From a virus: DNA of 64,000 nt. The position numbers and the translations under genes were made by a program. The notes under the pieces are model-generated. The model had not been told where the DNA came from and did no database searches. It saw nothing but the letters and a program-made list of their open reading frames with translations. The first letter of the stretch is position 1, and every line of letters begins with the position of its first letter. The stretch is from positions 1 to 64,000 of IMG/VR virus record IMGVR_UViG_3300045988_072028; one strand, given 5' to 3'. Below, one piece after another: positions 6,473-45,944 of this stretch.

Positions 6473-6483
6473 GGGGGGGGGGG
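6473..6483. repeat. G11 homopolymer tract upstream of tail-fibre gene 1
   Basis: Counted directly: g at 6473-6483. The tract is 13 nt after the upstream TAA and 34 nt before ATG 6518. Confidence 0.95.
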
Positions 6484-13570: not shown

Positions 13571-13660
13571 CATCTTGTAATTATTTGAGATATGTAAAAT
13601 TTCAAGATTTTATTATCTATAATATAGGCTATTATATTTTGCAATAATATTAGTATTGCT

Positions 13661-13703
13661 TATATTTGTGCGCCTACCTACTCATCACGAGCGGATAGGC
13701 GCA
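13661..13703 (+). promoter_or_regulatory. TATATTTG box fused to a long hairpin (8-bp outer stem TGCGCCTA/TAGGCGCA, apical loop ATCAC)
   Basis: Box at 13661-13668. Stem 13669-13676/13696-13703, inner pairs cc/gg and ctc/gag. Followed by the T-rich tttattaattt. Confidence 0.5.
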
Positions 13704-13732
13704 TTTATTAATTTAAAACTTTTAGTAAAGGT

Positions 13733-14485
13733 ATGAAAAGTAATTTGATTTTATCATCAGAGAGTAGGGAATTATTAGGTAGGAACATTTCTGTTATGTC
13801 CAAGGACGGGTTTGTATGCATAACGGAAGTTATGGAAGCCTTGAATGAAAAACGTAAATCTATGGGGTTGGAGTCTAGAAGGCTTGATCATTTGTTTGCT
13901 ACTAATGGATTTCAGGAAAAGATGAAAGCTCTTGTTAGGGAGCTGAGTATTAATGATATATGTACTGTAAGAAATCTTACGGTACAAAACCATGAATTGA
14001 AAATCAATAAGATAACCGATCTCAAAAAATACGGAATGGCTTACCGAAGAGGAAAGGGGGAGGGTCAGAAATGGTATGTAAATCCGTATTTTTTTGTTAT
14101 GGTAGCATTGGAATTGGATCCAGAGATATACGCCAAGGTGATAATATGGTTGCATGATGGATTCATAGAGGACAGGAATGCCGCTGGCGAGGCTTATATC
14201 AAGATGAGTTCGGCCGTCGCCAGGTTGGTTAGCGACAAGAGTCAGTTGTCTGATAAGATATCAAGGGTAGCTAAGGCTATTAATTTTATCGTCTTTAACA
14301 AGCATGAGAGTGGGATAAGGAATACGGCCACAAAGAATCAGTTAAACGACATAGTAGCTGTAGAGAATGTTATTACCGGCATTATAGATGGGGGCTTTAT
14401 AGATACTTATGATAAGCTTATAGACTATCTTGGACATGAATGGAAGAAGAAATGGGGTAATCCTGTTGCGGCTTTAAAATATTAG
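13733..14485 (+). CDS. KilA-N-like DNA-binding domain protein (tentative)
   Basis: 250-aa ORF. The N-terminal region RNISVMSKDGFVCITEVMEALNEK..LDHLFATNGFQEK resembles KilA-N domains. It has its own promoter-like box and its own terminator. Confidence 0.6.
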   Translation: MKSNLILSSESRELLGRNISVMSKDGFVCITEVMEALNEKRKSMGLESRRLDHLFATNGFQEKMKALVRELSINDICTVRNLTVQNHELKINKITDLKKYGMAYRRGKGEGQKWYVNPYFFVMVALELDPEIYAKVIIWLHDGFIEDRNAAGEAYIKMSSAVARLVSDKSQLSDKISRVAKAINFIVFNKHESGIRNTATKNQLNDIVAVENVITGIIDGGFIDTYDKLIDYLGHEWKKKWGNPVAALKY

Positions 14486-17303: not shown

Positions 17304-20300
17304 ATGGCTTCACAATATAGTATATTAAGGAATTACGGCAAGTATGTATCGCCCTACAACATGGATGTCATGATGCAGGGGATGGGGTACATGCAGCAGA
17401 AGATAGATACCAATCGGCAGGCTATAAACGAGTATGCTGATTATATTATCAATTCTGACATTATAAAACCTCAGGATAGGGAATATCTTCAGAATAGGTT
17501 AAATGGGCTGATACAGGACGTGAATAACGTGTATCGTAAATCTAATTTGGCTTCCGACGGTATAGCCAGAAGCATACAGGCTCGTCTTGGAGAAGCTCTG
17601 GATACCCGTGTGTTGAATGCTATTGCCGGTACTAGGGAGATCCGGGCTTTTAGCGAGAAGATGGAGGATATGAAGCTGAACAATCCCAAGATGTATAGTC
17701 CTATAAACGAGGCTGAGGCTTTTGCGGATGCCGTGGCTTGGATGAATGACGGTCAGGTAGGGACACGTCTTAATCCTATACATTATACCCCTTATACGGA
17801 TTACCACGCTGAGATTGATGAGAAGATGAAGAATTTCATCTCCCTTAACAAGGGGAAGAAAGTCAATGTACCGGTGACTGATGCCAATGGCAACAGGACG
17901 GGCGAGATGCGTGAGATGTATATAGATGAGATGAGTTACGCTCAGGTCAGGGATATAGCCATGGCTTCTATATCTGAGAACGGTAAGGCTCAGATGCAAT
18001 TAGAGGGAAGATATATGGCTAGAACGAATCCTGACTTATTTAATGTTCAAAGCACCTCAGATTTCCTTAAAGGGTATATTGATGATTTCAGTGTCAAGGA
18101 AGAATCCATACGAGCCAAGCTAAAGGGCGTTGGCAATGACAAGGCCAAGAGGGCTAAGTTGGAGTCGGAGCTGGCGGATATTATCAAGCAGAGAAATGAT
18201 TTCGTGGAGGAGGCCGAGGGCGTTATCGGTAGCAACTACAGCCCGGAGCGAGCCGGCATGTTCATGGTACGACAGCAGTTCCTTCGTGGCGTCGGGCTGA
18301 GATGGTCTTATAATAACTCATATGAGACGCTGGGCGTAGATGAGTATTACTTTAAGGCTAACCAACAGATGATGGAAAGAGCTAGGTTTAACGAGACAAA
18401 GAGGCATAATCTGGCTATGGAGAAAGCCGCTTTAATGAAAGCCAGTAAATCGGGTGAATCCGGTGGTGATGGTGGTGGTAATAATACTGTTGGGCCTACG
18501 GTGGTTACGAAGAGCGATAATCTTGATGACGTGAATATAAGTGATGAGTTCATGAACGGATTTACGGCTAATGAGAAGGCTGTTAATGCTGGTATGAATA
18601 GCTTTGTTAAATCACTATCAGATGACGCCAAGAGAAAAATTAGCGCATGGGCGTCCGATCCTGAGAATAGTAATGTTGTCAAGAATATGAGTGATGATCA
18701 AGTCATCATGACTTATTTCAAGGCTAATGGCGGGTCTACGAATACGCTTCTTGATTACAATGGCAAGGACAGCTATATAAAGCTTCTTGGGTTAAACAAC
18801 CAAAGGAATAAGTATAATAGGATCAATGAGGGATTCAATAAGGCTGAGGACGCTGTCTTGGATGGAGTTGATGCTATAGTCGAGAGAGAAGCTAGATCTA
18901 TTACTGGATCTGGAATTGATATTAGTTATGGATATGGGACGTTTGATCTTGGAGATATTGTAGAAGGAGGGCATTGGGCTTTTTCTCATCATGAAGCCAT
19001 AAAAGATATATCGTTAAAAGATTGGGCCAAATTATCCGCATATAGCTCTATCCTTAGTAATAGTGTAGAATTTATTAAGATAGGTAATGACCCTACGCAT
19101 CCAGTATCATATAAAGGTGTGAGTCTTGGAAGTGTTAATTCTGGAGAAGCGTCAGTAGTCCTAGGAAGAATAAATGATCTTATGGGAACCTCCTTAACAT
19201 TGGATGATATACAGTTATTAGCTAATATGGGGGCTGGTCATTTTTCTACATCTGATTTATTTAAAAAGAATCTAAGTGAAGGGTTGAGTAATTATAACGA
19301 GAGGAATGCCGTTGTTGCTACAGCTATATATGATGAGATAAATAAAGAGAATGGGGATGTACTTAGGCATAAATGGAGCCGTGGCGATTTAGGAAGACTT
19401 GCTAGCGACGCTAAACGTGCCGGTGAGGATTATCTAAGACAATATCGTCATGAGTACGCTGAGCGTGAGTATATCTTCTCTGGTGATTATCCGTCTAAAA
19501 GCAAAGCTGAGTATGATTATATAAAGATTAGTGATCTATTCACTCGTGGTGGTGGTTTTATCCCCAAGGATGAGGATAATGCCAATAAGAAGATAACGTT
19601 TACTATATCTCCTATAGGTGATGGCAATTATCAGATCATTGGTAATAATGGAGGTGATGGAAGATCTGTTGTTGAGGTAAGTGAGGCAGATTTAGCCGCC
19701 AATGACCTTACTTTTTATAAGGAGGATGTAAGTATCCCATCCGAGACCTACGATTCTGGCGTCGTGCCTATATCATTCGCCAGTTCAAGTGATAACGCTT
19801 ATGGCAAGATGGCTAACGCTTTACAGGTAGGGCCGGTGGCTTATGCTAGTGGGGCTAAGGATATGACAATGTCTTATATAGATATGTTTACCAATGTCAA
19901 TGATGGTAATATCAGAAAGAACCAGATGTTGATCGCCACTGATGTGTTGTTTGACAATACTTCTATGTATGAGCTTCGGGCTTCTGGATATAAGTATAAT
20001 AACGGTTCTTCCGGCATAAATGTTGATATATACAGGAAGGGCGGAGTAGCGAATGGCAGTACTCCATTATATTCCATTGATCTGGATGGCGTTAACTATG
20101 CTGATGAGGTAGCAAGGAAGATCGACTTCTGCCCGCAGTATTATTTGGTCATGGCATGGCAACAGATACTTAGCAAGGAGAATGAGGTGTATTGGAGGAG
20201 CGAGGGAAGATCTACTACTGATGATTTCGAGAGCTTCATCTCGCCCATAGCTGATATGATTGATCAGGAGATAAGAAACAGGAATAACGGAAATAGTGGA

Positions 20301-25198: not shown

Positions 25199-25290
25199 TA
25201 TCTTTGCGGCGTCAGTCCATCACCTGACGAGTAAGATATTTAAAAGTTGGTCCCTGTCGGGTGTGTGATGGCCCCGGTGGGGACTTTTTT
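25199..25290 (+). promoter_or_regulatory. twin-hairpin leader element, copy 1 (-7 box, hairpin with loop TCCATCAC, hairpin with loop TGTGATGG, T6)
   Basis: Box 25199-25206. HP1 25210-25215/25224-25229. HP2 25250-25261/25273-25284. T6 25285-25290. ATG 25296. Confidence 0.7.
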
Positions 25291-25295
25291 AGTAG

Positions 25296-32074: not shown

Positions 32075-32083
32075 CCCCCCCCC
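32075..32083. repeat. C9 homopolymer tract upstream of tail-fibre gene 2
   Basis: Counted directly. It ends 28 nt upstream of the -7 box at 32112. Confidence 0.95.
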
Positions 32084-35106: not shown

Positions 35107-35115
35107 CCCCCCCCC
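35107..35115. repeat. C9 homopolymer tract upstream of the BACON-like gene
   Basis: Counted directly. It ends 27 nt upstream of the -7 box at 35143. Confidence 0.95.
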
Positions 35116-35868: not shown

Positions 35869-35907
35869 ACCCCGATCGACTAAAGCCGGTTGGGGTTTAT
35901 TTGTTTT
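35869..35907 (+). terminator. terminator-like hairpin
   Basis: acccc(g)atcg/cggt(t)ggggt followed by tttatttgtttt. Confidence 0.5.
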
Positions 35908-35909
35908 GC

Positions 35910-35917
35910 TATCTTTG
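35910..35917 (+). promoter_or_regulatory. -7 box TATCTTTG
   Basis: 24 nt upstream of ATG 35942. Confidence 0.55.
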
Positions 35918-35941
35918 CAATAGAACAAAAATAATACAACT

Positions 35942-36925
35942 ATGGCTAATGATTTGAATATTAATTGGAAGGACGGGGTAGGTGAGGTAACGGACCAGCC
36001 TCTGACCGTCAGCCCGGGAGCCGGGAGTGGGGATGCGGCGGTTTCCTTTGGCTCGGTAATGAATAAAGGACTTGACCGTACCCTTGAGTTGGAGATAACA
36101 ACCCCCAAAGGCGTTAAGAAGACGCTCACGGTGAATCAGGAGGGATGTAGGCAGGCTTATATCACGAGCGACGGCAAACGATGGCTGACTAGCGACAATC
36201 AGGTTTATGGCGTATTGAAATCAGACGCCCCGTGCGAATGTACCGATACGTGTCGTGAATGTACGCTTATTGGATTTGATTATGCCGGGGTGATAAGTGA
36301 ATCCGGTAACGACCATATATTGATAAGGCCGTTGCCTGACAACCCCACAAAAACGACAGTTATCAAATATTCTAAAGACATCTCCACGTTCAGGGATGCC
36401 GATAAACCCTTTGATAGTCCCGATTCATCCAATAAATGCAGGTGGAATAACGTGACGCACGTAACATTGACCAACAGGGCTTATATATACTCAAGACCTC
36501 AATTGACTCCACACGAGGTTCAATACGCCCAGGCGGAGTATTCCAGCATGCAAGGGGAGTATGTAAATAAGATAGAGCTATTGATAGTTCCTGGGACTTT
36601 CAATATATCCGTTCCGGCTATTTATTCCTTGACATCTCCTGATAGCAGGGGAAGAATGGATATAGTATTAGCCGAGAATGGCAATGACGAGAATATATCG
36701 TATGATATATCCAATTACAATGATGTCCTTTACGGACTCAATAAACTAGCGCAATGCGTGTTGGTCAATAAAACCAGAACCTCTTTATCTATAAGGTATA
36801 AGGATACGGAGGAAGTGGTTACCGTAAATAATGGGGTATCATATTCCCTAGATACGTATATAAGGGAGGATAATTCTACCGATCATGGTAAATTCAGGGA
36901 TATTGAGATACTTCCTATAGGATAA
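35942..36925 (+). CDS. protein with N-terminal BACON/Ig-like module paralogous to 35186 (327 aa)
   Basis: LTVSPGAGSGDAAVSFGS...KKTLTVNQEG parallels VDPVSGSGDQAVNFSGD...KKALVVNQAA of the preceding gene. Confidence 0.75.
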   Translation: MANDLNINWKDGVGEVTDQPLTVSPGAGSGDAAVSFGSVMNKGLDRTLELEITTPKGVKKTLTVNQEGCRQAYITSDGKRWLTSDNQVYGVLKSDAPCECTDTCRECTLIGFDYAGVISESGNDHILIRPLPDNPTKTTVIKYSKDISTFRDADKPFDSPDSSNKCRWNNVTHVTLTNRAYIYSRPQLTPHEVQYAQAEYSSMQGEYVNKIELLIVPGTFNISVPAIYSLTSPDSRGRMDIVLAENGNDENISYDISNYNDVLYGLNKLAQCVLVNKTRTSLSIRYKDTEEVVTVNNGVSYSLDTYIREDNSTDHGKFRDIEILPIG

Positions 36926-36945
36926 TGATATTATCCTTTGTTTTT
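36920..36945 (+). terminator. intrinsic terminator overlapping the stop codon
   Basis: Perfect 7-bp stem ggataat/attatcc with loop gat, followed by tttgttttt. Confidence 0.7.
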
Positions 36946-36959
36946 ACAAATTTTGTAAT

Positions 36960-37054
36960 TATTTTTGTGCCGGATGTCCATCACCATCCAAATCCTGCTA
37001 ATTTATTATACGAGAGGCGGTGTATGTGATGGTACGCCAGCCTCTCTTATTTTT
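36960..37054 (+). promoter_or_regulatory. twin-hairpin leader element, copy 2
   Basis: Box TATTTTTG 36960-36967. HP1 ggatg/catcc 36972-36976/36985-36989 with loop TCCATCAC. HP2 37012-37024/37033-37046 with loop TGTGATGG. T-rich 37047-37054. ATG 37058. Confidence 0.7.
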
Positions 37055-37057
37055 ATC

Positions 37058-37339
37058 ATGGAGAAGAAATTAAATGTTTTCGATGTTAAGATTCCTGATG
37101 GCGGACAAATCAGTTGTCTACAGATTGATAAGGTTACTTATTTTGATCTTGAGTCTATATGTAAGTTATGTTTTGATACATACGATCTACATGACGTGGC
37201 TGACACTAAGGTGATGAGCGAGTTCCTTCACCGTGAGGGCGGTCGTTTCTGGACTACCTTGGATGGCGTAAGGCAATTATATAGGAGGGTCGAGTGCAAG
37301 ATGTGTTTCGAGGTAATTGAAAAGCTAAGGGAGTTATGA
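37058..37339 (+). CDS. hypothetical protein (93 aa)
   Basis: ATG 37058 is preferred. The longer ORF from 36965 would run through the leader hairpins. ATGA-type overlap with the next gene. Confidence 0.65.
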   Translation: MEKKLNVFDVKIPDGGQISCLQIDKVTYFDLESICKLCFDTYDLHDVADTKVMSEFLHREGGRFWTTLDGVRQLYRRVECKMCFEVIEKLREL

Positions 37340-37704
37340 TGAAATTATTGCTGGTGGATGTTTATGAGTTCAAGACAGACCCATATGGTTTGGATAGATT
37401 CGGGAGTAAGATAAAGAATTATGGTCTTAAGCTTATCCGTAAGAACATACCGTTCGGTGTTGAGTATTACATATTAAGAGGGGAGAACAAGATTCAGATA
37501 TATGATAAGGATATCTTGGTAGTATTTCCAAGTTCTCATGTAAGACCTTCTTTTTGTAAGGTGGATTTCCATTATTTTGAGGTTTACAGACCTTCTATGT
37601 TTGAGGCTCTTCACAAAATAGCTATTGATTATGCCTTGGATTTGAGAAATGAGTTTAATGATATCGTTAACAAAAAAGATGATTATGAAGGAAAAGGAAA
37701 ATAA
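37336..37704 (+). CDS. hypothetical protein (122 aa)
   Basis: Translationally coupled ORF. Confidence 0.65.
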   Translation: MMKLLLVDVYEFKTDPYGLDRFGSKIKNYGLKLIRKNIPFGVEYYILRGENKIQIYDKDILVVFPSSHVRPSFCKVDFHYFEVYRPSMFEALHKIAIDYALDLRNEFNDIVNKKDDYEGKGK

Positions 37705-38110
37705 GAAAGAGGTATTGGTGTATGAGTACGATCCCAAGATATACCCGAGGAAATTGTTCGTGATGAAAGGATGTGAGATCAAGGATATCAAGGAAAGATT
37801 CTCCACGAGGGATGACGAGGAGATCGAGACAGAGATCGAGAAGGGATCTGAGCCAGCGTTAAGGGTCTTCCCTATGGTAAAGATAAAGGATACCGGCGCT
37901 TATGGTGAGCTGGTTGTGGTCTTCGTGGAGCCTGAGTACGTGAGCTGCGGGATGATCTCCCATGAGGCCTTCCATGTGGCCATGGACATCCTTAGCGAAC
38001 TAGGGGTCATGTTTCATGCCGACAATCAGGAACCCATAGCTTATATGGTCGAATGGGCGGCGGAATGCATCCATGACGTGATAACCGGGGAAGCGGATAA
38101 GGAGGATTGA
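37649..38110 (+). CDS. small putative zinc metallopeptidase (HExxH); start uncertain (internal Met codons at 37679/37685)
   Basis: Motif GMISHEAFHVAMDIL in a protein of about 140-153 aa. Confidence 0.6.
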   Translation: MSLMISLTKKMIMKEKENKKEVLVYEYDPKIYPRKLFVMKGCEIKDIKERFSTRDDEEIETEIEKGSEPALRVFPMVKIKDTGAYGELVVVFVEPEYVSCGMISHEAFHVAMDILSELGVMFHADNQEPIAYMVEWAAECIHDVITGEADKED

Positions 38111-38111
38111 T

Positions 38112-38387
38112 ATGGTACATACTTACAAATCCAAGGGGCTTACGAAAAGAGCCGTGAAGATCAATCTTGGTTATGATCCGGGAAATACGGGAAGGGTGTT
38201 TGGTTGCGAGACCAAGATGCTTTACGGCGGAGATCCGCCTCATTTGTTGGGCTTGATGATCACTGATTCTACTTGTACGTTCGTGGCTAAGGATGGGGAT
38301 TATGTGGTGGAGGTAGATAGGGATGGTCCCGTGTTATGGGCGGTAAGAAAGGACGTTTTTGAGCGTCTGTTTAAGATCATTGGTTAG
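38112..38387 (+). CDS. hypothetical protein (91 aa)
   Basis: ORF starting 1 nt after the previous stop. A terminator follows. Confidence 0.65.
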   Translation: MVHTYKSKGLTKRAVKINLGYDPGNTGRVFGCETKMLYGGDPPHLLGLMITDSTCTFVAKDGDYVVEVDRDGPVLWAVRKDVFERLFKIIG

Positions 38388-38392
38388 GTTGG

Positions 38393-38424
38393 GCCTGTCT
38401 GGTTGTTAGCTAGACAGGCTTTTT
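38393..38424 (+). terminator. intrinsic terminator
   Basis: 8-bp stem gcctgtct/agacaggc (38393-38400/38412-38419) followed by T5. Confidence 0.75.
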
Positions 38425-38427
38425 GTT

Positions 38428-38435
38428 TATCTTTG
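38428..38435 (+). promoter_or_regulatory. -7 box TATCTTTG with conserved leader TCAAAAACATTTAGTT
   Basis: 16 nt upstream of ATG 38452. Confidence 0.6.
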
Positions 38436-38451
38436 TCAAAAACATTTAGTT

Positions 38452-41400
38452 ATGTCAAGTTGTGTCATTAAAAGAAATAAGGAGGGTAAGATAACCCGTG
38501 TCTTGACCCCTTCCGGAGAGGTATCCACCTTGTTCGATAAGATAGCGGGTATAGCCGCCGTAAGTGACCTTAATAAGGCCGCTGAGGCTTATATGACTAT
38601 TTATAACGATAAGTTCAGATCCAAGTTCGGAGACTGGACGAGATCCGTGCCAAGGAATAAGGAGGCGGCCAGATCCATAAGCGCCAGACTTAGCTCCAGC
38701 GAGTGGGGGCAACTTATGTCAGCCAAGGTCCTGTCCGCCATAAGCGATATGGATGCCCCGGCGTTGGCCAGAAGTCTCGGGAATAGCGACAATGTCGTGG
38801 CTTATCTTACCTCCGGAGAGGTAGGTGATGTCAATGATATGGCTGTGGTAGATACATCTACGGTACAGGAGGTGGATCTGGATTCCATAAACGAGGATAA
38901 TATTGGCGATACGATACTGAAAGAGGCGTCATGGGATGATATAAGGGCTATCAGGGAGAATATAGACATTAAGGAGACAGCCCGTATGTTATGGAAGGCC
39001 GTGGAAAGCGCTTTTACCGGGCAACGACCTAATATTAGGGTGAAAGGCGGAAGTATAGACGGGGAGATCATATTTTCTGGCAATGTCTTGCCGTTAAATA
39101 ATATTGAGAATTATACTCCTCCATCTTCAAGATTGGTATATGATTCCGGTGAGCCTCGCCTGTTCTTTAGATCGGATGACGGCAAGATACACGAATCTTA
39201 CGCCAACGCCATAAAAGGATCGTCCGGTGGGCGGGTCGAGGCCGGGTTCTTGGCCGGCAGTGTCGAGGAGAGCGACGTCCCGTCCGGTACGGCTGATATC
39301 TCCTTTGGCTCTTCCTCCATAACCCTTAATAACAGTGGGTCATTCATCCCGATCCTTGGTATTAGCTCAAACTCAGATGTAAGCACTCGTGGAGGGTTTG
39401 TTAATTACCTTATCAAGAAAGGTCTGTTGAGCGGGGAGCGTATAAGGCTAGGGGATAGGTATTATCTTACCGGTGCCGGCAATTCTGATGGTCTTAAGAT
39501 CTATAACGCTATGGATGCCTTGTCTAGGCTAAGGAATAGGTTTGGAAGTCAGTCCTCCGAAATGAACGTATTGGGTTCTATAGGTTTTGATACGGAGGTA
39601 AGTAATGATCTTGATCTTATCACGACATCAGGGGATAAGGTTACGGTAAGCAGATCGGAGATCAAGGGCATGTTAAGGCAAGGTAAGTTTGAGGAGCTTA
39701 ATAATAAGTATGATGGGTTCATGGAGCTAGCCTTGTCGTTGATGATGGAGGATAACGCCTTGTACGGAAGTAATGTCCGTGGGGTTATCGAGAATGAGAA
39801 GGCGGAGGATCTCCAGAATAGGACTGATATCACCAATATCTTATCCACGTTAGGTATCCGTGTGATGGGTATGTCTGAGTATATGGATAAGTATAAGATG
39901 CGTAATGGTGTCGAGCCTTCGGCTAGGGCATTGTCCGATATGGCCAATGGGGTTATCGCTTTGGCCGAGGGAGCTACGGTAGAGGATCTTAATGAGGAGG
40001 TGGCTCATTTCTTGATCGATACTTACCGTAACCAACAGGAGATTGACGAGGTTCTGGACTCTGTTGTCGGCACGCCATTATGGAATCAATTCGCCGGTCG
40101 TTACTATGAGGTGTATGGGAAGGAATACCAAGGGGAGGAACTGGATCGGATGGTGAAGCGGGAAATCCTAGGCAAGACGTTGGCCCAGCGGTTCGTCCCG
40201 GGTATGGAGCAGGCGGTGGAGGATCTGGCCTCGTCCGAGGATGCCCAGCTCTCCTTGTTTGGCAGGATAATCCGGGCTATACGGAATTTCTTCTCTACTC
40301 AAAGATCAGACTTGAATAAGGTTCTTGATAGGATAAAGGAGTCGGCGTTAGCTGATGATCCAAGCGCCTTTGACGTGCTTCTGTTAAAGGATAGCGACCA
40401 TCTCATGTACTCATTATCGGATGTTGATGTGGCTAATAAGCTGATCAAGAACGGTAGGTCATTGGAAAGACTATATACCAGATTGCAGAGGATGAGGTCA
40501 AGCCAAAGCCAGAGGATCGGGGAAAGCATCTCCCTTCTACGTGATATAGGCGAGAAGGTAAGACAAGTCGGGGGTGAGCTAAATAAGAATAACAACCTAT
40601 TATCCACCAAGAGCGTTATAGCTACAGCCAAGGCTGAGGTGGAGTATTTGGTCACTGTCGCCAGCAGCTTACGTAAGAGCGGGAAAGGATTGGATTATGA
40701 GACGATGCAGGTTATCGATAACGTATATGGGGAGATCGTGCCACTTGTCAGGAACCTTCGTGGATTCGTCAATAATCAGGCGGCTGATTATTATGGCAGC
40801 AATAAGGTTGGCATGGTAGAGGATATGGATGATATATTACGTATGGCTGAGACATCCATGTCAGATATAAACGCCCTTAAAAGTGATCGTAACGAGGATT
40901 GGCTGGATGGACAGCTTCGGATGTTCAATATCCCGGAAAGGTACTGGAATGGGATAAAGAAGTTGATAGATAACATCCATAAGGATATCAATGTCATGTC
41001 CCGGTTTTTCGGGACGTTAGAACATAGCGGTAACGCTATCCTAGGCATGTTAGGCCAACGTCTAGCCAAGGCTTATAACGACGCTCATGTTGAGGGTGTG
41101 GCTAATATCAATAAGATGACTAAGATGATGAAAGAGCGTGGATGGGGGATAAAGGATAATGAGGATCTTATACAGAAGATAAACGGTAAGAACTCGGATT
41201 ACCTTGACTCGTCCCGTGATTTCGCCAAATACGATTTACTGCTCAGGACCGAGCAGGCTAAGGCTATTATCGATATATATGATCTTAAGAATGTTACGGG
41301 TAAGACCGAGAAACAACTTATCGACCTTCTTCTATCCGATAGAGGCCTTAAGGTGAAGACCCGTGACGACATAGTAGGATATGACGGGGATAAGCCTATT

Positions 41401-44400
41401 ACGAAGGCCGTGTATCATGTATTCAAACCTACCATCCAGAATTTTGATATCTCGGACATGACGTTCGAGGATCAGCAACGGTATCTGGATACGATAAATA
41501 GGTGGTTGGATGAGAACCAAGAGAAACCTATGGTGCAGGCTTATTACGATAAGATCGAGAAAGTTAATAAGAAGGTCGAGGAAAGACTGGGTCGTAGGGT
41601 ATCGCAAGCCACGTCCGATTTCATGACCCGTATCCGTAGAAGCCGGTATGTGGCTATGGATAAGTTTATTAAGAACAAGAAGGTCGATTGGGACGCTTTC
41701 CAATCTGACCCTATAGCTTGGAGATCTTATCTGGATATCCTTCGTGATAGGGCTATAGCCAAGAGCGAGTGGTATTCCGACGGGACACCAAAGGAAGCGG
41801 GGTCCGAGGCGTTGATGATGTCCGAGGAGATCAAGGCATGGGACGAGGCGTGGGCCGAGGAGTTCGGGAATACCAACGAGGGTCGTAAGGCTTCAGCCGA
41901 GTTTAAGGAGATACTGCGTGGGATAGAGCGGTCCGAGGGCGGTAAGGCAGCATTCGAGTTCCTGCTAGCCGGTGGTCATCTTGGCTTCTCCAAGGATATG
42001 TGGGGATCCGAGGAGGGTGATTATTACGAGAATCTGGTTGATAAGATCACGGAGCAATCTGTATCATCATCAAGGATAGAGAAGGTAGAGGAGGCGATGG
42101 CAACAATAAATGAGATTAACGATCAGTTAAGACCTTTGCTTATTCAGTACCGGGACAGTACCAGATATGGCGAGTATGATTTCGATCGTCTTCGTGGATC
42201 ATCGTCATTAAGGAAGATAAACGAGCTATACGACCGTCTGGCCGAGGCCAAGAGTGTTATTAACGCCGCCGCTTCCGCTGAGGATATTGAGATGAATATG
42301 CCCGATACGGTGGAGAGTGGCGTTACAGATTCCTACCGTAATGCGTTAAGGGATGCCGTGACATACGACAAGGGAATGGATGAGATTAAATTCGCCAAGG
42401 AACATATGTCTGCCCGCTCCCGGAGTCAGGTAGATAGGATGGCCGCCAAGCTGTCACAGAAGAATCCATCATGGACATCCATGGAGACAACGTTCCTTAG
42501 AAAAAAATACGGTCCTGATTTCAGTGATAAGCTGGCTAATGATATAGCTATGGGTAAGGCTAATAGTATACTTATTGAGTATGCCAGAACCCGGCTATAT
42601 CCTTATATGAGAAAATACTCTCCCAAAGGGTATTCTGATTTTGTCAGGAAGATAAATAACGGTACGTATAAGGTGTCGGATTTTTTTGATGCCATGGAAA
42701 GCGGTATATCAAAGGAAGAAAGCGTGTCCCGTTTCGGCTTCGATATTAATATGATTGATTTGTCGATCAACAACCAATGGTTAGATGAGGCTGATTTCGA
42801 GAGTTCCTTCCGGAATCCTAATTATAATCCCGATCTAGGTTATGGATATCATACGCCTAGATTTGATAAGTACAAGAATGAGGCTTTCTTCAAAAAATAC
42901 GGTATTACCAAGGAAGGAGAGGAGGCCACGATCAACAAGGATAAGTGGGAGATGAGGAAGGAATTGCTTAACATAAGCCGTAAGGCTATGGAGGATTATG
43001 ATGAGCGTTTCAGGAATATCTACCAGATACCACAGATATCCAAGGGCGGAGTGGAGAGGATGGTGCAGGCCGGGGTTGACCCGAAGGCGGCCATCGGAAA
43101 CGCCGTACGTGACATCGTTGGCGAGAGGGTTGATGATCCCATACATGGTCAAGGACAAGACCTAGGAGGGCTTGATGAGAACGATAACAAATATCGCATG
43201 ATCCCCAAGTACTATCTGAGCAAGCTAGAGAATGCCGATGACGTATCCCATGACTTCGCGTACTCCTATTCTATGCTATCCCTTCAGGCGGCATCTTATA
43301 AGTATAAGAGAGCTGCTTTGGATGATGTTATGGGATATAGGAATATGATGCTTGAGACACAATATGATGGGGGAAAGAATCCAGAAGCCACTCATGCCTA
43401 CAGGATGTTTCAGGACTGGGTTAACGCCAGTATCTATGACGTTAGGATAAACAATAAGCGGACTGAATGGAATATAGGCAATTATAAGGTCGATCTTAAT
43501 AAGCTGGCCCTTATGTTTACCAAATTTGTGTCCAAATCCAACTTAGGCTTCTCCCCGTTCGTGGCGGCTACCGGTGCCCTTACCGGGCAGGCCAACTTCC
43601 TTTTGGAAGGTATGGTAGGACAGTACATAAGCAAGGACTCCATGAAATACGCTTATGGAGAAGCTCAGAAACAGTTAAGTACGTACGTGTCTGAGATCGG
43701 GGACATAAATCGTACCAATAAGTTATATGTTGTCGGTGAGGCCCTAGGCGTATTCAACGTTCGTAACCGTGTAAGATCGGCGGCATATAACAAGATCTGG
43801 AGAACCTTATTCCGGGACCTGCCGTTTAAGATGATGGAGGTTTTGAACTCTCCTTTGGATCCGCAGGTTATTATCTCGGTGATGGATGACACCCGCTTGT
43901 ATGAGGGTCAGTTCTGGTCATATTCTAATTTCAAGGAGATGATGATGAAGGACAGGAATATGTCCGCTAATGAGGCTAAACGTGATTGGGAGCGTTTAAG
44001 GGATTATTCCATATGGAACTTAGTAAATGTCAAGGACGGGAAGATCGTGGCTAAAAACGAGGCTAATAAGGATATTATAGACCGATACATACCTACATTG
44101 TCCAGCAGGGTCAGGAGTATGGTGCAGATATGCGACGGCGCCCTGAACGAGCAGAACCGGGTGGGGGCTAGCCGGAACGCGATCCTTAACATGGTGCTTC
44201 CTCATCGTGGATGGTTTATATTGGCTGTGCAGCGGGCGTATAAGAAAGCCGGTTTCAATTTCCAGACCAACCAGTTCGAGGAAGGATATATGAGGACATT
44301 ATGGCGATTGGCGGGGAATGTCTATAATACGATGTCCGAGGGTCGTATGGGGGAGGCGTATGACGTGCTTAAAGAGGAATATGATAAGCTTACACCTTAT

Positions 44401-44898
44401 GAGCAGGTTAATATCAAGAGATCTATTATCAATGTGGCGGTATTCGCCACGATGATGGCTATAGGAAGGGCTTTGATGGGATATAGGGAGGATAATGAGG
44501 ATAGCTGGTTCGGGCAGTTCATTACCTATATCGGGTTCAGGACGATCAATGAGATCGCTTCCCAGACATCCCCGTTCATGGAGCTTAACGCCATAGATAT
44601 GCTGCAAGATCCGCTGGTTACCGCCCGAAAGTTAGGCGATCTCACCGATCCTCGAAACTGGGATCCGTTCGCTACCGTCCAGACCGGCGTGTATAAGGGA
44701 GAGAGCAAGCTATGGAGGCAGCTCATGAAATTCTCGTTCGGTAAGCAATGGTATAATATCAAGACGGCTAGGGATATTAAGCAGACATCCGACTACTGGT
44801 TGATGACCAACGGCATGACGATGGGATTCTTCTTAGGAGGCAGGGATAAGGACGAGTCCGGGGAGGACGCTAATTGGTACTTTGACAGGGGAAGATAA
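38452..44898 (+). CDS. giant virion protein (2148 aa), polyvalent/ejection-type; size is that of a crAss-like virion RNAP but no catalytic motif was seen
   Basis: Single uninterrupted ORF, the last large gene of the + block. Its N-terminal approx 60 aa are homologous to the 26250 product. I found no DxDxD motif by eye. Confidence 0.85.
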   Translation: MSSCVIKRNKEGKITRVLTPSGEVSTLFDKIAGIAAVSDLNKAAEAYMTIYNDKFRSKFGDWTRSVPRNKEAARSISARLSSSEWGQLMSAKVLSAISDMDAPALARSLGNSDNVVAYLTSGEVGDVNDMAVVDTSTVQEVDLDSINEDNIGDTILKEASWDDIRAIRENIDIKETARMLWKAVESAFTGQRPNIRVKGGSIDGEIIFSGNVLPLNNIENYTPPSSRLVYDSGEPRLFFRSDDGKIHESYANAIKGSSGGRVEAGFLAGSVEESDVPSGTADISFGSSSITLNNSGSFIPILGISSNSDVSTRGGFVNYLIKKGLLSGERIRLGDRYYLTGAGNSDGLKIYNAMDALSRLRNRFGSQSSEMNVLGSIGFDTEVSNDLDLITTSGDKVTVSRSEIKGMLRQGKFEELNNKYDGFMELALSLMMEDNALYGSNVRGVIENEKAEDLQNRTDITNILSTLGIRVMGMSEYMDKYKMRNGVEPSARALSDMANGVIALAEGATVEDLNEEVAHFLIDTYRNQQEIDEVLDSVVGTPLWNQFAGRYYEVYGKEYQGEELDRMVKREILGKTLAQRFVPGMEQAVEDLASSEDAQLSLFGRIIRAIRNFFSTQRSDLNKVLDRIKESALADDPSAFDVLLLKDSDHLMYSLSDVDVANKLIKNGRSLERLYTRLQRMRSSQSQRIGESISLLRDIGEKVRQVGGELNKNNNLLSTKSVIATAKAEVEYLVTVASSLRKSGKGLDYETMQVIDNVYGEIVPLVRNLRGFVNNQAADYYGSNKVGMVEDMDDILRMAETSMSDINALKSDRNEDWLDGQLRMFNIPERYWNGIKKLIDNIHKDINVMSRFFGTLEHSGNAILGMLGQRLAKAYNDAHVEGVANINKMTKMMKERGWGIKDNEDLIQKINGKNSDYLDSSRDFAKYDLLLRTEQAKAIIDIYDLKNVTGKTEKQLIDLLLSDRGLKVKTRDDIVGYDGDKPITKAVYHVFKPTIQNFDISDMTFEDQQRYLDTINRWLDENQEKPMVQAYYDKIEKVNKKVEERLGRRVSQATSDFMTRIRRSRYVAMDKFIKNKKVDWDAFQSDPIAWRSYLDILRDRAIAKSEWYSDGTPKEAGSEALMMSEEIKAWDEAWAEEFGNTNEGRKASAEFKEILRGIERSEGGKAAFEFLLAGGHLGFSKDMWGSEEGDYYENLVDKITEQSVSSSRIEKVEEAMATINEINDQLRPLLIQYRDSTRYGEYDFDRLRGSSSLRKINELYDRLAEAKSVINAAASAEDIEMNMPDTVESGVTDSYRNALRDAVTYDKGMDEIKFAKEHMSARSRSQVDRMAAKLSQKNPSWTSMETTFLRKKYGPDFSDKLANDIAMGKANSILIEYARTRLYPYMRKYSPKGYSDFVRKINNGTYKVSDFFDAMESGISKEESVSRFGFDINMIDLSINNQWLDEADFESSFRNPNYNPDLGYGYHTPRFDKYKNEAFFKKYGITKEGEEATINKDKWEMRKELLNISRKAMEDYDERFRNIYQIPQISKGGVERMVQAGVDPKAAIGNAVRDIVGERVDDPIHGQGQDLGGLDENDNKYRMIPKYYLSKLENADDVSHDFAYSYSMLSLQAASYKYKRAALDDVMGYRNMMLETQYDGGKNPEATHAYRMFQDWVNASIYDVRINNKRTEWNIGNYKVDLNKLALMFTKFVSKSNLGFSPFVAATGALTGQANFLLEGMVGQYISKDSMKYAYGEAQKQLSTYVSEIGDINRTNKLYVVGEALGVFNVRNRVRSAAYNKIWRTLFRDLPFKMMEVLNSPLDPQVIISVMDDTRLYEGQFWSYSNFKEMMMKDRNMSANEAKRDWERLRDYSIWNLVNVKDGKIVAKNEANKDIIDRYIPTLSSRVRSMVQICDGALNEQNRVGASRNAILNMVLPHRGWFILAVQRAYKKAGFNFQTNQFEEGYMRTLWRLAGNVYNTMSEGRMGEAYDVLKEEYDKLTPYEQVNIKRSIINVAVFATMMAIGRALMGYREDNEDSWFGQFITYIGFRTINEIASQTSPFMELNAIDMLQDPLVTARKLGDLTDPRNWDPFATVQTGVYKGESKLWRQLMKFSFGKQWYNIKTARDIKQTSDYWLMTNGMTMGFFLGGRDKDESGEDANWYFDRGR

Positions 44899-44955: not shown

Positions 44956-45081
44956 TATATTTGCATTATGAAACAATGAATGACGGGATCTCACTTCAAG
45001 GTCATTCAATGTGTAAGATATTTTTGGCTCATTAGGATTTGTCGAGGTGAGATCCGACATTTCCTTTTGAGCCTATTTTTT
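44956..45081 (+). promoter_or_regulatory. TATATTTG box plus about 120-nt structured leader upstream of the antirepressor-like gene
   Basis: Hairpin gaatgac/gtcattc (44978-44984/45001-45007). Its loop ggatctcac (44986-44994) is complementary to gtgagatcc (45047-45055). Outer stem ggctca/tgagcc (45026-45031/45068-45073) followed by a T run. Confidence 0.5.
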
Positions 45082-45086
45082 ATATT

Positions 45087-45944
45087 ATGTGTAATATTGT
45101 TTTAAATGACAATTTGTCTATTAGATTGTATTTTGAGAAGGTTCTTGAGTTAGTTAAATCCGGAGAAGATTTTCCAGTTAATTTAGATGATGTTTGGCCT
45201 TTGATATATTCTGATAAAGGTAAGGCTGTTAGGGTTCTTACTGGTGATAATGGTTTTATCAAAGATATTGACTATAAGGTTTTTACCCAAAATGGCAAAA
45301 ACCCGGTTGGAGGAAGACCTGCGATTGTGTATATGATTTCTGTGTCTTGTATGGAATATTTAATAGCAAGAAAAGAAAGAAGAGTATTTGATGTATATAG
45401 GAGTGTGTTTCATGGTGCGGCAAATGCTTTTAATAAGATGGAAGAATCCGTGGAGAAGAATCTTCCGCATAATTATATAGAAGCGTTAGAGGCGTTGTTG
45501 GCATCCGAGAAAGAGAAGCAGGCGTTAGCTGAGGCCAAGAAAGCGGTAGAGGATGCTAAGAGAATATCCGATAGCATTATCAAAGAACAAGCCCCTAAGG
45601 TGGGATTCGCTGAAACGGCTATCATGGCCAATGACAAAGGTGATGATATGCTGATCCGTGATGTCAGGAGGGAATTGGAGTCTCATGGATGTGATATAGC
45701 GGAAAGATCGTTAAGAGAGTTTTTACAAGAACAAGGTTTCTTTTACAAGAATAAGAGAGAATGGATATTGACGGAGCATGTGATTAAGAAAGGTTACGCC
45801 CATTACAGGTACAACACGGATACCGGAGTCAGGAATACGGTTTATATGACTAGGAAGGGGTTTGAGAAAACGTTATATAATATCAGGAATATACCTAAAT
45901 CAAGAGAACTCTTTATTTCTTTCGGAGGCAAGATATTTGATTAA
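45087..45944 (+). CDS. antirepressor-like protein (AntA/KilAC-type, tentative)
   Basis: The N-terminus FPVNLDDVWPLIYSDKGKAVRVL and the C-terminal APKVGFAETAIMAND..MLIRDVRRELESHG..SLREFLQEQGF resemble Ant/KilAC domains. Confidence 0.65.
   Translation: MCNIVLNDNLSIRLYFEKVLELVKSGEDFPVNLDDVWPLIYSDKGKAVRVLTGDNGFIKDIDYKVFTQNGKNPVGGRPAIVYMISVSCMEYLIARKERRVFDVYRSVFHGAANAFNKMEESVEKNLPHNYIEALEALLASEKEKQALAEAKKAVEDAKRISDSIIKEQAPKVGFAETAIMANDKGDDMLIRDVRRELESHGCDIAERSLREFLQEQGFFYKNKREWILTEHVIKKGYAHYRYNTDTGVRNTVYMTRKGFEKTLYNIRNIPKSRELFISFGGKIFD

What the first reader, a model, noticed from the sequence alone, without database searches (positions are those of the whole stretch)
36960..37054. Twin-hairpin leader element, copy 2 (downstream of a separate dedicated terminator)
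This is the second copy of the 25199 element:
- Box TATTTTTG (36960-36967).
- HP1 36972-36989 with loop TCCATCAC.
- 22-nt A/T spacer.
- HP2 37012-37046 with loop TGTGATGG.
- ttattttt, then ATG 37058.

The upstream gene already has its own terminator at 36920-36945. The terminator-like HP2 is therefore not simply the end of the upstream operon. It sits inside the leader of the next operon (37058-38387, which includes the HExxH protein). That favours conditional termination.
Basis: seen in the sequence. Interest (0 to 1): 0.7.

Follow-up and report, generated by a model that had tools for sequence, protein, structure and literature searches.

The report
Kissing-loop leader with built-in terminator
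An abundant human-gut crAss-like phage puts a host-type promoter, a small hairpin and a terminator hairpin with complementary loops directly in front of small gene cassettes, which looks like an undescribed RNA switch but has not been tested experimentally.

Summary
The window holds exactly two copies, at 25199-25295 and 36937-37057, each built as box, HP1, A/U spacer, HP2, U-tract, ATG.

- The "box" is the Bacteroidetes -7 promoter element TAnnTTTG. In copy 2 a -33 TTTG lies 19 nt upstream, so HP1 sits at the predicted 5' end of the transcript.
- The two 8-nt loops are reverse complements over 7 nt (CCAUCAC/GUGAUGG, -9.2 kcal/mol).

In several hundred related ~150-kb gut-phage contigs both stems change with compensation. 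The loops stay invariant. G·U pairs favour the + strand.

A second, orthogonal element of the same design precedes the antirepressor gene at 44956-45086. It is shared with the other epsilon crAss-like genus, where one base pair of its loop-loop helix is swapped on both sides.

Rfam has no matching family, and I found no description in the literature searched.

Best reading: a leader RNA whose loop-loop contact governs read-through, translation or stability at a terminator that abuts the start codon. It works like the leader-embedded antisense RNAs P1 c4, P4 CI and IsrK. The direction of the effect is unknown. "Conditional termination" is partly supported.

The parts
36920..36945 (+). Weak A/T-rich hairpin (GGATAAT gat ATTATCC) spanning the stop codon of gene 35942-36925, followed by TTTGTTTTT.
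   Evidence: sequence.: -6.3 kcal/mol. Upstream flanks in relatives are unrelated sequences with no evident counterpart (read by eye).
36937..36967 (+). Host-type (Bacteroidetes primary sigma) promoter: -33 TTTG (36937-36940), 19-nt spacer, -7 TATTTTTG (36960-36967). The TSS is inferred at about 36971-36972.
   Evidence: the full pattern gives 4 hits against 0.45 expected; 11 of 15 +-strand TAT[ACT]TTTG boxes lie in the 4.5% of sequence that is intergenic. Same pattern in relatives. Consensus from PMC7366714. TSS position is from memory, not mapped.
36972..36989 (+). HP1: 5-bp stem GGATG/CATCC, 8-nt loop UCCAUCAC (36977-36984).
   Evidence: -5.9 kcal/mol; 3 of 5 stem pairs change on both sides between the window copy 2, relatives' copy 2 and copy 1. 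Loop invariant.
36990..37011 (+). 22-nt A/U-rich unpaired spacer (GCTAATTTATTATA conserved among copy-2 variants).
37012..37046 (+). HP2: 13-bp stem with one bulge, 8-nt loop UGUGAUGG (37025-37032). Loop positions 2-8 are complementary to HP1 loop positions 2-8.
   Evidence: -23.5 kcal/mol; 7 of 12 stem pairs with double-sided changes; loop-loop duplex -9.2 kcal/mol.
37047..37057 (+). U-tract (TTATTTTT) and 3 nt before the ATG at 37058. Together with HP2 this has the form of an intrinsic terminator.
   Evidence: A T-run of 5-9 follows HP2 in all copy-2 variants.
37058..38387 (+). Downstream cassette of four small genes (93, 122, 153, 91 aa). It ends at a strong terminator (38391-38421), before the virion-RNAP-like gene with its own -7 box (38428).
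   Evidence: The cassette differs between relatives.
25199..25295 (+). Copy 1 of the same element: -7-like TATCTTTG 25199-25206 (poor -33; TTCG in about a fifth of relatives), HP1 25210-25229, spacer 25230-25248, HP2 25249-25285, T6 25285-25290, ATG 25296.
44956..45086 (+). Class II element of the same design, before the antirepressor-like gene 45087-45944: -7 TATATTTG 44956-44963; HP-A 44974-45011 (loop 44985-45000); spacer 45012-45025; three-segment HP-B 45026-45073 (loop 45045-45054); T-run 45074-45081. Loop A GAUCUCACUU pairs with all 10 nt of loop B.
   Evidence: ANT KilAC domain.
13638..13732 (+). Possible relative: full promoter (TTTG-N19-TATATTTG), then one terminator-like hairpin 13669-13703 whose loop holds CUCAUCAC, before gene 13733-14485 (weak KilA-N match).
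   Evidence: Duplex with the class I HP2 loop -9.0 kcal/mol. The link to class I is speculative.

Best explanation
The element is a promoter-proximal leader RNA module.

Proposed sequence of events:
- Host RNA polymerase starts 3-4 nt after the -7 box, so the transcript begins with HP1.
- About 40 nt later it transcribes HP2 and its U-tract, which together form an intrinsic terminator that ends 3 nt before the start codon.
- Most transcripts are expected to stop there, giving an RNA of about 80 nt.
- The downstream small-gene cassette is expressed only from read-through transcripts.
- The 7-nt complementarity between the HP1 loop and the HP2 loop forms a loop-loop ('kissing') helix. It can form within one molecule, because the 22-nt linker is long enough. 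It can also form in trans between the short terminated RNA and nascent or read-through transcripts of either copy.
- This contact sets how much functional downstream mRNA is made, by changing terminator efficiency, access to the adjacent start codon, or RNA stability.

What is shown:
- The promoter motif.
- Both hairpins, supported by covariation.
- The orientation (+ strand).
- Invariance of the complementary loops.
- The terminator form of HP2.
- The logical need for read-through.
- A second, orthogonal element of the same design.

What is inferred:
- The transcription start site.
- That termination actually occurs.
- That the loops pair.
- The sign and the trigger of any regulation.
For: Promoter:
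- TTTG-N19-TAnnTTTG.
- 11 of 15 -7 boxes lie in the 4.5% of sequence that is intergenic.
- Ordinary late promoters lie 17-36 nt from their start codons. The box-to-start distance is 90, 91 and 124 nt in these leaders.
- The consensus, and a typical 5' UTR of about 23 nt, are given in PMC7366714.
- Middle and late genes of a crAss-like phage are transcribed by host RNAP (bioRxiv 10.1101/2020.03.07.982082).

Structure:
- 90% of cells are paired, against 30-43% when the partner columns are slid.
- 10 pairs show double-sided changes; 0 of 500 shuffles reach the observed score.
- RNAalifold independently finds HP1 and parts of HP2.
- + strand folds average -27.0 kcal/mol against -21.7 for the - strand, and 18% of pairs are G·U.

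Loops:
- Invariant in 67 of 68 loop-agnostic copy-2 samples and in all but 4 of about 110 copy-1 samples, while stems, spacers and flanks vary.
- In one lineage the only unpaired loop nucleotide changes (U to C) and the 7-mer is kept.
- Only 0.26% of random 8x8 loop pairs reach -9 kcal/mol.

Same design elsewhere:
- In class II the 8-bp core of the loop-loop helix pairs in nearly all of 24 variants (two singleton mismatches).
- One pair is C-G in 13 and U-A in 11, split by genus.
- Cross-class duplexes are only about -4 kcal/mol.

The ATG lies 3-12 nt after the U-tract in all variants.
Against: - There are no transcript data; termination, the start site and loop pairing are all untested.
- The class I loops never covary, so pairing there rests on complementarity and conservation only.
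- The single compensatory event (class II) would also fit co-evolving protein half-sites.
- A kissing contact at the apex of a 13-bp terminator stem has no established way of changing termination.
- Copy 1 has a poor -33, and about 20% of relatives carry TTCG in the -7 box. Copy 1 may therefore be reached mainly by read-through from the upstream gene.
- The simple terminator scan did not flag HP2, because of its bulge and its strict rules.
- A third candidate class in the sister genus often carries an uncompensated mismatch.
Confidence: 0.45

Rival explanations
1. These are stand-alone small-RNA genes. Promoter plus terminator make an RNA of about 80 nt whose loops act on other targets, or make it dimerise or multimerise. 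Downstream genes are fed by incidental leakage.
For: - Own promoter and own terminator.
- Copy 1 occupies a position where the sister genus has two directly adjacent genes. It therefore looks like an inserted unit.
- Flanks on both sides are mosaic.
- Terminated intergenic sRNAs are common in Bacteroides (PMC7366714).
Against: - The ATG always follows the U-tract within 3-12 nt, and no other promoter serves the downstream cassette.
- Both loops pair best with each other.
- GUGAUGG and CCAUCAC are not enriched elsewhere in the window.
Confidence: 0.2
2. This is passive architecture: a 5' stabiliser hairpin plus an ordinary leaky terminator or insulator between gene cassettes. The loop complementarity only compacts the RNA against nucleases.
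For: - Terminator-then-promoter junctions are frequent between late genes of this phage.
- HP1 lies at the predicted 5' end.
- The upstream terminator is weak or absent in relatives, so HP2 may also end upstream transcripts.
Against: - It does not explain why 7-10-nt loop complementarity is strictly kept in two or three independent element classes while stems drift.
- It does not explain the unusually large 8-10-nt loops on the terminators.
Confidence: 0.15
3. This is protein-dependent antitermination of the lambda N/boxB or Q type. A phage factor recognises the conserved HP1 loop (and perhaps the HP2 loop) and lets RNAP pass HP2 and later terminators.
For: - Conserved loops on variable stems are what boxB-type sites look like.
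- The late region contains many terminators.
- A promoter followed by a nearby terminator is the lambda PR'-tR' layout (from memory).
Against: - The two loops are complementary, not identical, so one RNA-binding protein would not see the same site twice.
- No N-, Q- or NusG-like gene was recognised in the window.
- The 8-nt loops are not GNRA-like.
Confidence: 0.1
4. This is a DNA-level site. CCATCAC...GTGATGG are inverted operator half-sites for a dimeric or tetrameric DNA-binding protein acting at the promoter.
For: - The loops are an inverted repeat in duplex DNA.
- The concerted change of both half-sites in class II fits a change of protein specificity.
Against: - Each half-site sits exactly in the loop of a hairpin whose stem covaries, which a duplex-DNA site does not require.
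- G·U pairs make the structure strand-specific.
- Centre-to-centre spacing is 48-49 bp in class I and about 60 bp in class II, neither a whole number of helical turns.
Confidence: 0.08

Closest known systems
P1/P7 c4 antisense RNA controlling the icd-ant operon (mechanism from memory)
   Same: - The regulatory RNA segment and its complementary target lie in the same leader transcript, upstream of an antirepressor gene.
- Specificity resides in short loop sequences that differ between related phages, with matching changes in the target.
- The class II element here precedes an ANT-domain gene and shows such a matched change.
   Different: - c4 pairs with the ribosome-binding region of icd and acts through translation and Rho polarity. 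Here the target is the loop of an intrinsic terminator hairpin.
- No sequence or structure match to any Rfam family.
- The host phylum is different.
- The genes downstream of copy 2 are not recognisable antirepressors.
P4 CI RNA (seqB pairing with seqA/seqC) and N15 CA RNA
   Same: A leader-derived small RNA base-pairs with sites in the same leader and controls premature transcription termination ahead of the regulated genes. P4 is summarised in PMC4825925. The N15 reference is Ravin et al. 1999, cited in PMC4488713; its mechanism is from memory.
   Different: - Those RNAs are processed (RNase P) and pair with linear target sites. Here there are two hairpin loops, one of which is the terminator's own loop.
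- Processing is unknown.
- No homology was detected.
IsrK of Salmonella Gifsy-1
   Same: One promoter yields a short RNA ending at its own intrinsic terminator and a read-through mRNA for the genes just downstream. The short form acts in trans on the long form (PMC4825925).
   Different: - IsrK remodels alternative long-range helices to open a ribosome-binding site.
- Here no alternative nested structure was found, only a loop-loop contact.
Plasmid kissing-loop antisense control (ColE1 RNA I/II, R1 CopA/CopT, pT181 attenuation; from memory)
   Same: Recognition through fully complementary 6-8-nt hairpin loops. In pT181-type systems the outcome is formation or use of a leader terminator.
   Different: - Those antisense RNAs come from the opposite strand. 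Here both partners are on one transcript.
- No YUNR U-turn motif occurs in the class I loops (read from the sequence).
Ordinary intrinsic terminator or 'moron' cassette boundary
   Same: HP2 plus the U-tract has the form of an intrinsic terminator. The downstream small-gene cassettes are swapped between relatives, like morons.
   Different: - The terminator lies downstream of the cassette's own promoter and abuts the start codon.
- Its loop is large, invariant and complementary to the 5' hairpin loop.

Membership tests
Bacteroidetes primary-sigma promoter | -7 element TAnnTTTG | tested here: met
   TATTTTTG 36960-36967 and TATCTTTG 25199-25206. The motif is concentrated in intergenic DNA. Consensus from PMC7366714.
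Bacteroidetes primary-sigma promoter | -33 TTTG about 19-21 nt upstream of the -7 element | tested here: met
   Copy 2: TTTG-N19, and the same in relatives. Copy 1 does NOT meet it (CTTG/TTGC), and its -7 box is TTCG in about 20% of relatives.
Bacteroidetes primary-sigma promoter | Mapped transcription start | not testable with these tools
   No transcript data are available. The start site at about 36971 is inferred from motif geometry.
Intrinsic (Rho-independent) terminator | Stable G+C-containing hairpin directly followed by a U-tract | tested here: met
   HP2 is -20 to -23.5 kcal/mol. A T-run of 5-9 lies within 0-4 nt in copy-2 variants. Copy 1 in most relatives has a poorer tract, CUCUUUAUAUU. 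The simple scan missed HP2 because of the bulge.
Intrinsic (Rho-independent) terminator | RNA 3' ends produced at the U-tract | not testable with these tools
   Needs Term-seq or in vitro transcription.
Classical transcription attenuator (terminator/antiterminator alternatives, leader peptide) | Mutually exclusive antiterminator helix overlapping the terminator's 5' arm | tested here: not met
   MFE and centroid folds give only HP1 and HP2. The only long-range complementarity is loop-to-loop and does not extend into the stems (read from the sequences).
Classical transcription attenuator (terminator/antiterminator alternatives, leader peptide) | Conserved leader peptide ORF | tested here: not met
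   An ATG in the HP1 stem opens a 12-codon ORF in relatives' copy 2. In the window it runs in frame into the gene, and it is absent from copy 1.
Leader-embedded antisense RNAs (P1/P7 c4, P4 CI, N15 CA, IsrK) | Regulator segment and complementary target on the same leader transcript upstream of the controlled genes | tested here: met
   7-nt (class I) and 8-10-nt (class II) complementarity within one leader.
Leader-embedded antisense RNAs (P1/P7 c4, P4 CI, N15 CA, IsrK) | Sequence or structure homology to the described RNAs | tested here: not met
   No Rfam 15 family reaches its gathering score in the window. No credible match at E<=10 in the three leaders.
Leader-embedded antisense RNAs (P1/P7 c4, P4 CI, N15 CA, IsrK) | Processing to a stable small RNA; effect on termination or translation | not testable with these tools
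   Requires RNA analysis and genetics.
Kissing-loop RNA complexes | Two hairpin loops with contiguous Watson-Crick complementarity of at least 6 nt | tested here: met
   Positions 2-8 of both 8-nt loops pair, -9.2 kcal/mol. Only 0.26% of random loop pairs reach -9 kcal/mol.
Kissing-loop RNA complexes | Covariation within the loop-loop helix | tested here: inconclusive
   Class I: no variation apart from singletons, 3 of 5 of them wobble-compatible. Class II: one genus-level C-G to U-A exchange. Class III candidate: mixed.
Purine-riboswitch-like three-way junction with kissing L2/L3 | Closing P1 helix joining the two hairpins | tested here: not met
   No conserved pairing between the sequence 5' of HP1 and 3' of HP2. 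The transcript is predicted to start at HP1.

The most novel reading that the evidence does not exclude
Epsilon crAss-like phages carry a family of self-contained 'kissing-loop attenuators'. Each is a 5' hairpin whose loop pairs with the loop of the leader's own intrinsic terminator. The classes have mutually orthogonal loop codes: class I (two copies), class II before the antirepressor gene, and possibly more. Terminated short RNAs would act in trans on every leader of the same code. That would give RNA-only regulons that gate antirepressor and accessory cassettes. It would be a Bacteroidetes-phage counterpart of P1 c4 or P4 CI immunity, and a candidate for the unexplained lysis-versus-persistence switch of crAss-like phages.
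Probability: 0.25. Interest if true: 0.8.

Novelty: new variant of a known kind. Interest (0 to 1): 0.62.

Why it matters
crAss-like phages are the most abundant viruses of the human gut, yet almost nothing is known about how they regulate their genes or persist without classical lysogeny.

This element is a compact regulatory module supported by sequence covariation. It is present in several hundred contigs fetched here and defined to the nucleotide. A sister element sits in front of an antirepressor gene and is conserved across two genera.

If the loop-loop contact controls read-through, it would be a new way to build an attenuator, with the terminator's own loop as the sensor. It would also be a ready-made set of orthogonal RNA parts for Bacteroides engineering.

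The idea can be tested directly with loop mutations and compensatory mutations.

Tried and rejected
- Exact-loop scans of IMG/VR with fixed N39 spacing gave only chance hits, because relatives have N40-41. Widening the gap recovered them.
- A blastn search of 35900-38500 against GenBank phages found nothing.
- A generic scanner for any twin hairpins with complementary loops is too noisy to be useful. It gave 2-14 hits per shuffled window at 6 nt or more, and more than 100 with relaxed settings.
- The covariance model found no class I copy in the csAssE-Sib genome.
- The protein searches listed only near-identical relatives, so no intermediate lineage with altered class I loops could be reached.
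- The GTDB genome scan gave chance hits, plus two small contigs of this phage in a Vibrio olivae assembly that are probably contamination. It gave no host information.
- Leader peptide, classical antiterminator, riboswitch-like junction and IS200/IS605-end or MITE origin were considered and rejected. HP1 and HP2 stems, and the two copies, share no sequence beyond the loops.
- Pfam and PHROGs gave no function for the genes directly downstream of copies 1 and 2.
- Literature searches for crAss-like promoter, terminator or hairpin elements and for kissing-loop terminators found nothing relevant.

Full report
**What the window is**

The 2148-aa ORF 38452-44898 is a homologue of the virion RNA polymerase of crAss-like phages. 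It is 35% identical to phage csAssE-Sib and 23% to Cellulophaga phi17:2/phi4:1, and its C-terminal part matches the crAss001 'RNA-polymerase subunit'. Other large + strand ORFs match virion and tail PHROGs.

More than 595 IMG/VR contigs of up to about 150-160 kb carry a 95-99% identical protein. The window therefore comes from a very abundant human-gut phage of the epsilon crAss-like group, in a different genus from csAssE-Sib (PMC11054128).

**Checking the observation**

Copy 1 at 25199-25295 has the same plan.

- CCATCAC-N41-GTGATGG occurs exactly twice, with the same 55-nt span, and in none of 100 shuffles.
- Both regions fold as twin hairpins, better than shuffles (z = -3.4 and -2.8).
- A covariance model built from the variants finds only these two sites in the window (73.5 and 64.7 bits).

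**What the 'box' is**

TATTTTTG and TATCTTTG match TAnnTTTG, the -7 element of the primary sigma factor of Bacteroidetes. Its partner is TTTG near -33 (PMC7366714).

- Copy 2 has the full pattern TTTG-N19-TATTTTTG. There are 4 such matches in the window against 0.45 expected.
- Relatives of copy 2 keep the pattern while the sequence differs: TTTG-N19-TACATTTG and TTTG-N19-TAGTTTTG.
- On the + strand of the late region, 11 of 15 TAT[ACT]TTTG boxes lie in the 4.5% of sequence that is intergenic.
- Ordinary boxes lie 17-36 nt from the next start codon. The two twin-hairpin units lie 90 and 91 nt away.
- Host RNAP transcribes middle and late genes of the crAss-like phage phi14:2 (bioRxiv 10.1101/2020.03.07.982082).
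- From the usual geometry of the motif (my own knowledge), transcription should start 3-4 nt after the box, at the first base of HP1.
- Copy 1 is weaker as a promoter. Its -33 is poor, and about a fifth of relatives carry TTCG in the box.

**The hairpins are real and belong to the + strand**

At copy 2 the relatives are only about 80% identical, although the neighbouring polymerase protein is 95-99% identical.

- HP1 is GGATG/CATCC in the window, GCATG/CATGC in most relatives and CGTCAG/CTGACG in copy 1.
- HP2 occurs in at least six stem versions.
- On 38 distinct sequences, 90% of cells pair, against 30-43% when the 3' partners are slid.
- 3 of 5 HP1 pairs and 7 of 12 HP2 pairs change on both sides. 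No shuffle of 500 reaches the observed covariation.
- RNAalifold recovers HP1 and parts of HP2 on its own.
- + strand folds average -27.0 kcal/mol against -21.7 for the complement, and 18% of pairs are G·U. This points to a + strand RNA rather than a duplex-DNA site.

**The loops**

Positions 2-8 of UCCAUCAC pair with positions 2-8 of UGUGAUGG. That is 7 Watson-Crick pairs, -9.2 kcal/mol, a value reached by 0.26% of random 8-nt loop pairs.

- In samples collected without fixing the loops, loop 1 is unchanged in 67 of 68 copy-2 elements and loop 2 in 68 of 68.
- All but four of about 110 copy-1 elements are unchanged. Three of those four are C-to-U changes that keep a wobble pair.
- One lineage changes only the unpaired first loop base (CCCAUCAC) and keeps the 7-mer.
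- The loops are therefore the most constrained part of the element, and the constraint falls on the complementary 7-mer.
- Because they never vary, covariation cannot prove that they pair.

**A second element of the same design**

Upstream of the ANT-domain gene 45087-45944 lies, in order:
- -7 TATATTTG;
- HP-A, an 11-bp stem with a 16-nt loop;
- a 14-nt spacer;
- HP-B, 15 bp in three segments separated by UU/UU internal loops, with a 10-nt loop;
- a T-run, then the ATG.

Loop A pairs with all ten bases of loop B (-12.9 kcal/mol).

The same leader precedes the antirepressor gene of csAssE-Sib and its relatives. There the loops read GAUCCCAC/GUGGGAUC instead of GAUCUCAC/GUGAGAUC.

On 24 variants, the 8-bp core of the loop-loop helix pairs in nearly all sequences (two singleton mismatches). 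One pair is C-G in 13 and U-A in 11, split by genus. HP-B is 100% paired, with two double-sided changes.

Cross-class loop duplexes are only about -4 kcal/mol. The spacer motif AAGATATTT is shared with copy 1 of class I. The design therefore recurs with orthogonal loop 'codes'.

A third candidate in csAssE-like genomes (loops UUUUGGNNNN/AUCCCCAAAA, before the gene starting at record position 17367, minus strand) is less clear. Most genomes carry an uncompensated A·C mismatch. Six genomes have the compensating C-to-U change.

**Consequences of the anatomy**

HP2 (-20 to -23.5 kcal/mol) followed by 5-9 T has the form of an intrinsic terminator. The ATG follows within 3-12 nt in all variants. No room is left for another promoter.

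The conserved downstream ORFs (343 protein clusters for the 93-aa protein) can therefore only be expressed by reading through HP2.

It has no evident counterpart in relatives, whose upstream flanks are several unrelated sequences.
- The cassettes on both sides are mosaic.
- At the copy-1 position csAssE-Sib has two directly adjacent genes. The elements thus behave as boundaries of exchangeable units.

**Mechanism**

I found no mutually exclusive antiterminator helix and no conserved leader peptide. No closing helix that would make a riboswitch-like junction exists either. The loop complementarity does not extend into the stems.

The best-supported model is a leader RNA in which a loop-loop contact between the 5' hairpin and the terminator's own loop decides the yield of functional downstream mRNA. 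The contact could form in cis, since the 22-nt linker can span the roughly 25-bp stacked helix. It could also form in trans between the short terminated RNA and other leaders with the same loops. The yield could be set at the level of termination, start-codon access or stability.

I cannot say which level, or in which direction.

In behaviour the closest known systems are the leader-embedded antisense RNAs of P1/P7 (c4-ant), P4 (CI RNA) and N15, and IsrK of Gifsy-1 (PMC4825925; PMC4488713). Plasmid kissing-loop attenuation is also comparable.

The element is not a member of any of those families. No Rfam 15 model matches.

**Rivals**

- A stand-alone sRNA gene.
- A passive stabiliser-plus-terminator junction.
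- A boxB-like protein site.
- Duplex-DNA operator half-sites. Stem covariation, G·U pairs and non-helical spacing of 48-49 and about 60 bp argue against this last one.

**Verdict**

This is a real, strongly constrained and apparently undescribed RNA element with a sister class across two genera. All functional steps remain to be tested. The tests are simple, because the model makes explicit compensatory-mutation predictions.

Noticed in passing
window 44956-45086: A second class of twin-hairpin leader with complementary loops (10 nt) and a terminator-like second hairpin. It lies directly before the antirepressor-like gene 45087-45944. It is conserved in the sister genus (csAssE-Sib, OR575929 about 95480-95604) with one compensatory change in the loop-loop helix.
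   Followed up: yes
window 13638-13732: A full host-type promoter followed by a single terminator-like hairpin whose loop contains CUCAUCAC, before a weakly KilA-N-like gene. The loop could pair with the class I HP2 loop (-9.0 kcal/mol). It is invariant in the relatives examined.
   Followed up: partly
L220 (OR575929.1) 17385-17456, minus strand: A candidate third class in csAssE-like phages. HP1 has loop UUUUGGAGUU and a 13-bp terminator hairpin has loop AUCCCCAAAA, followed by T9 and an ATG 10 nt later. Loop complementarity varies between genomes: many carry an A·C mismatch, and six carry a compensating C-to-U change.
   Followed up: partly
window 6473-6483, 32075-32083, 35107-35115: Homopolymer tracts in + strand intergenic regions: G11, C9 and C9. 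They could be slippage-prone and phase-variable, or sequencing-difficult sites.
   Followed up: no
window 36965-37339; proteins P0001, P0002: In the window lineage the leader is open in frame with the 93-aa gene. ORF lists and public gene calls therefore extend the protein to 121-124 aa through HP1 and HP2. Relatives with 40-41-nt spacing break the frame, so the extension is an annotation artefact.
   Followed up: partly
L223 1753-3348: In one relative an IS605-type unit (an OrfB/TnpB-like gene and a Y1 transposase gene) is inserted just downstream of, and overlapping, the gene that follows copy 2.
   Followed up: no
L625, L642 (Vibrio olivae CECT 8064 contigs NZ_JBHMEP010000029.1 and NZ_JBHMEP010000023.1): Small contigs (4.4 and 8.7 kb) in a Vibrio olivae genome assembly carry the copy-2-type element with its promoter. 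This is probably contamination of that assembly by the gut phage.
   Followed up: no
L093 about 5265-5400: A natural deletion variant. The sequence runs from the copy-2 spacer straight into the middle of the downstream gene, removing HP2 and the start codon.
   Followed up: no
window 25233-25241 and 45015-45023: The spacer motif AAGATATTT is shared between copy 1 of class I and the class II leader, including in the sister genus. It is absent from copy 2. It might be a processing or protein-binding site.
   Followed up: no
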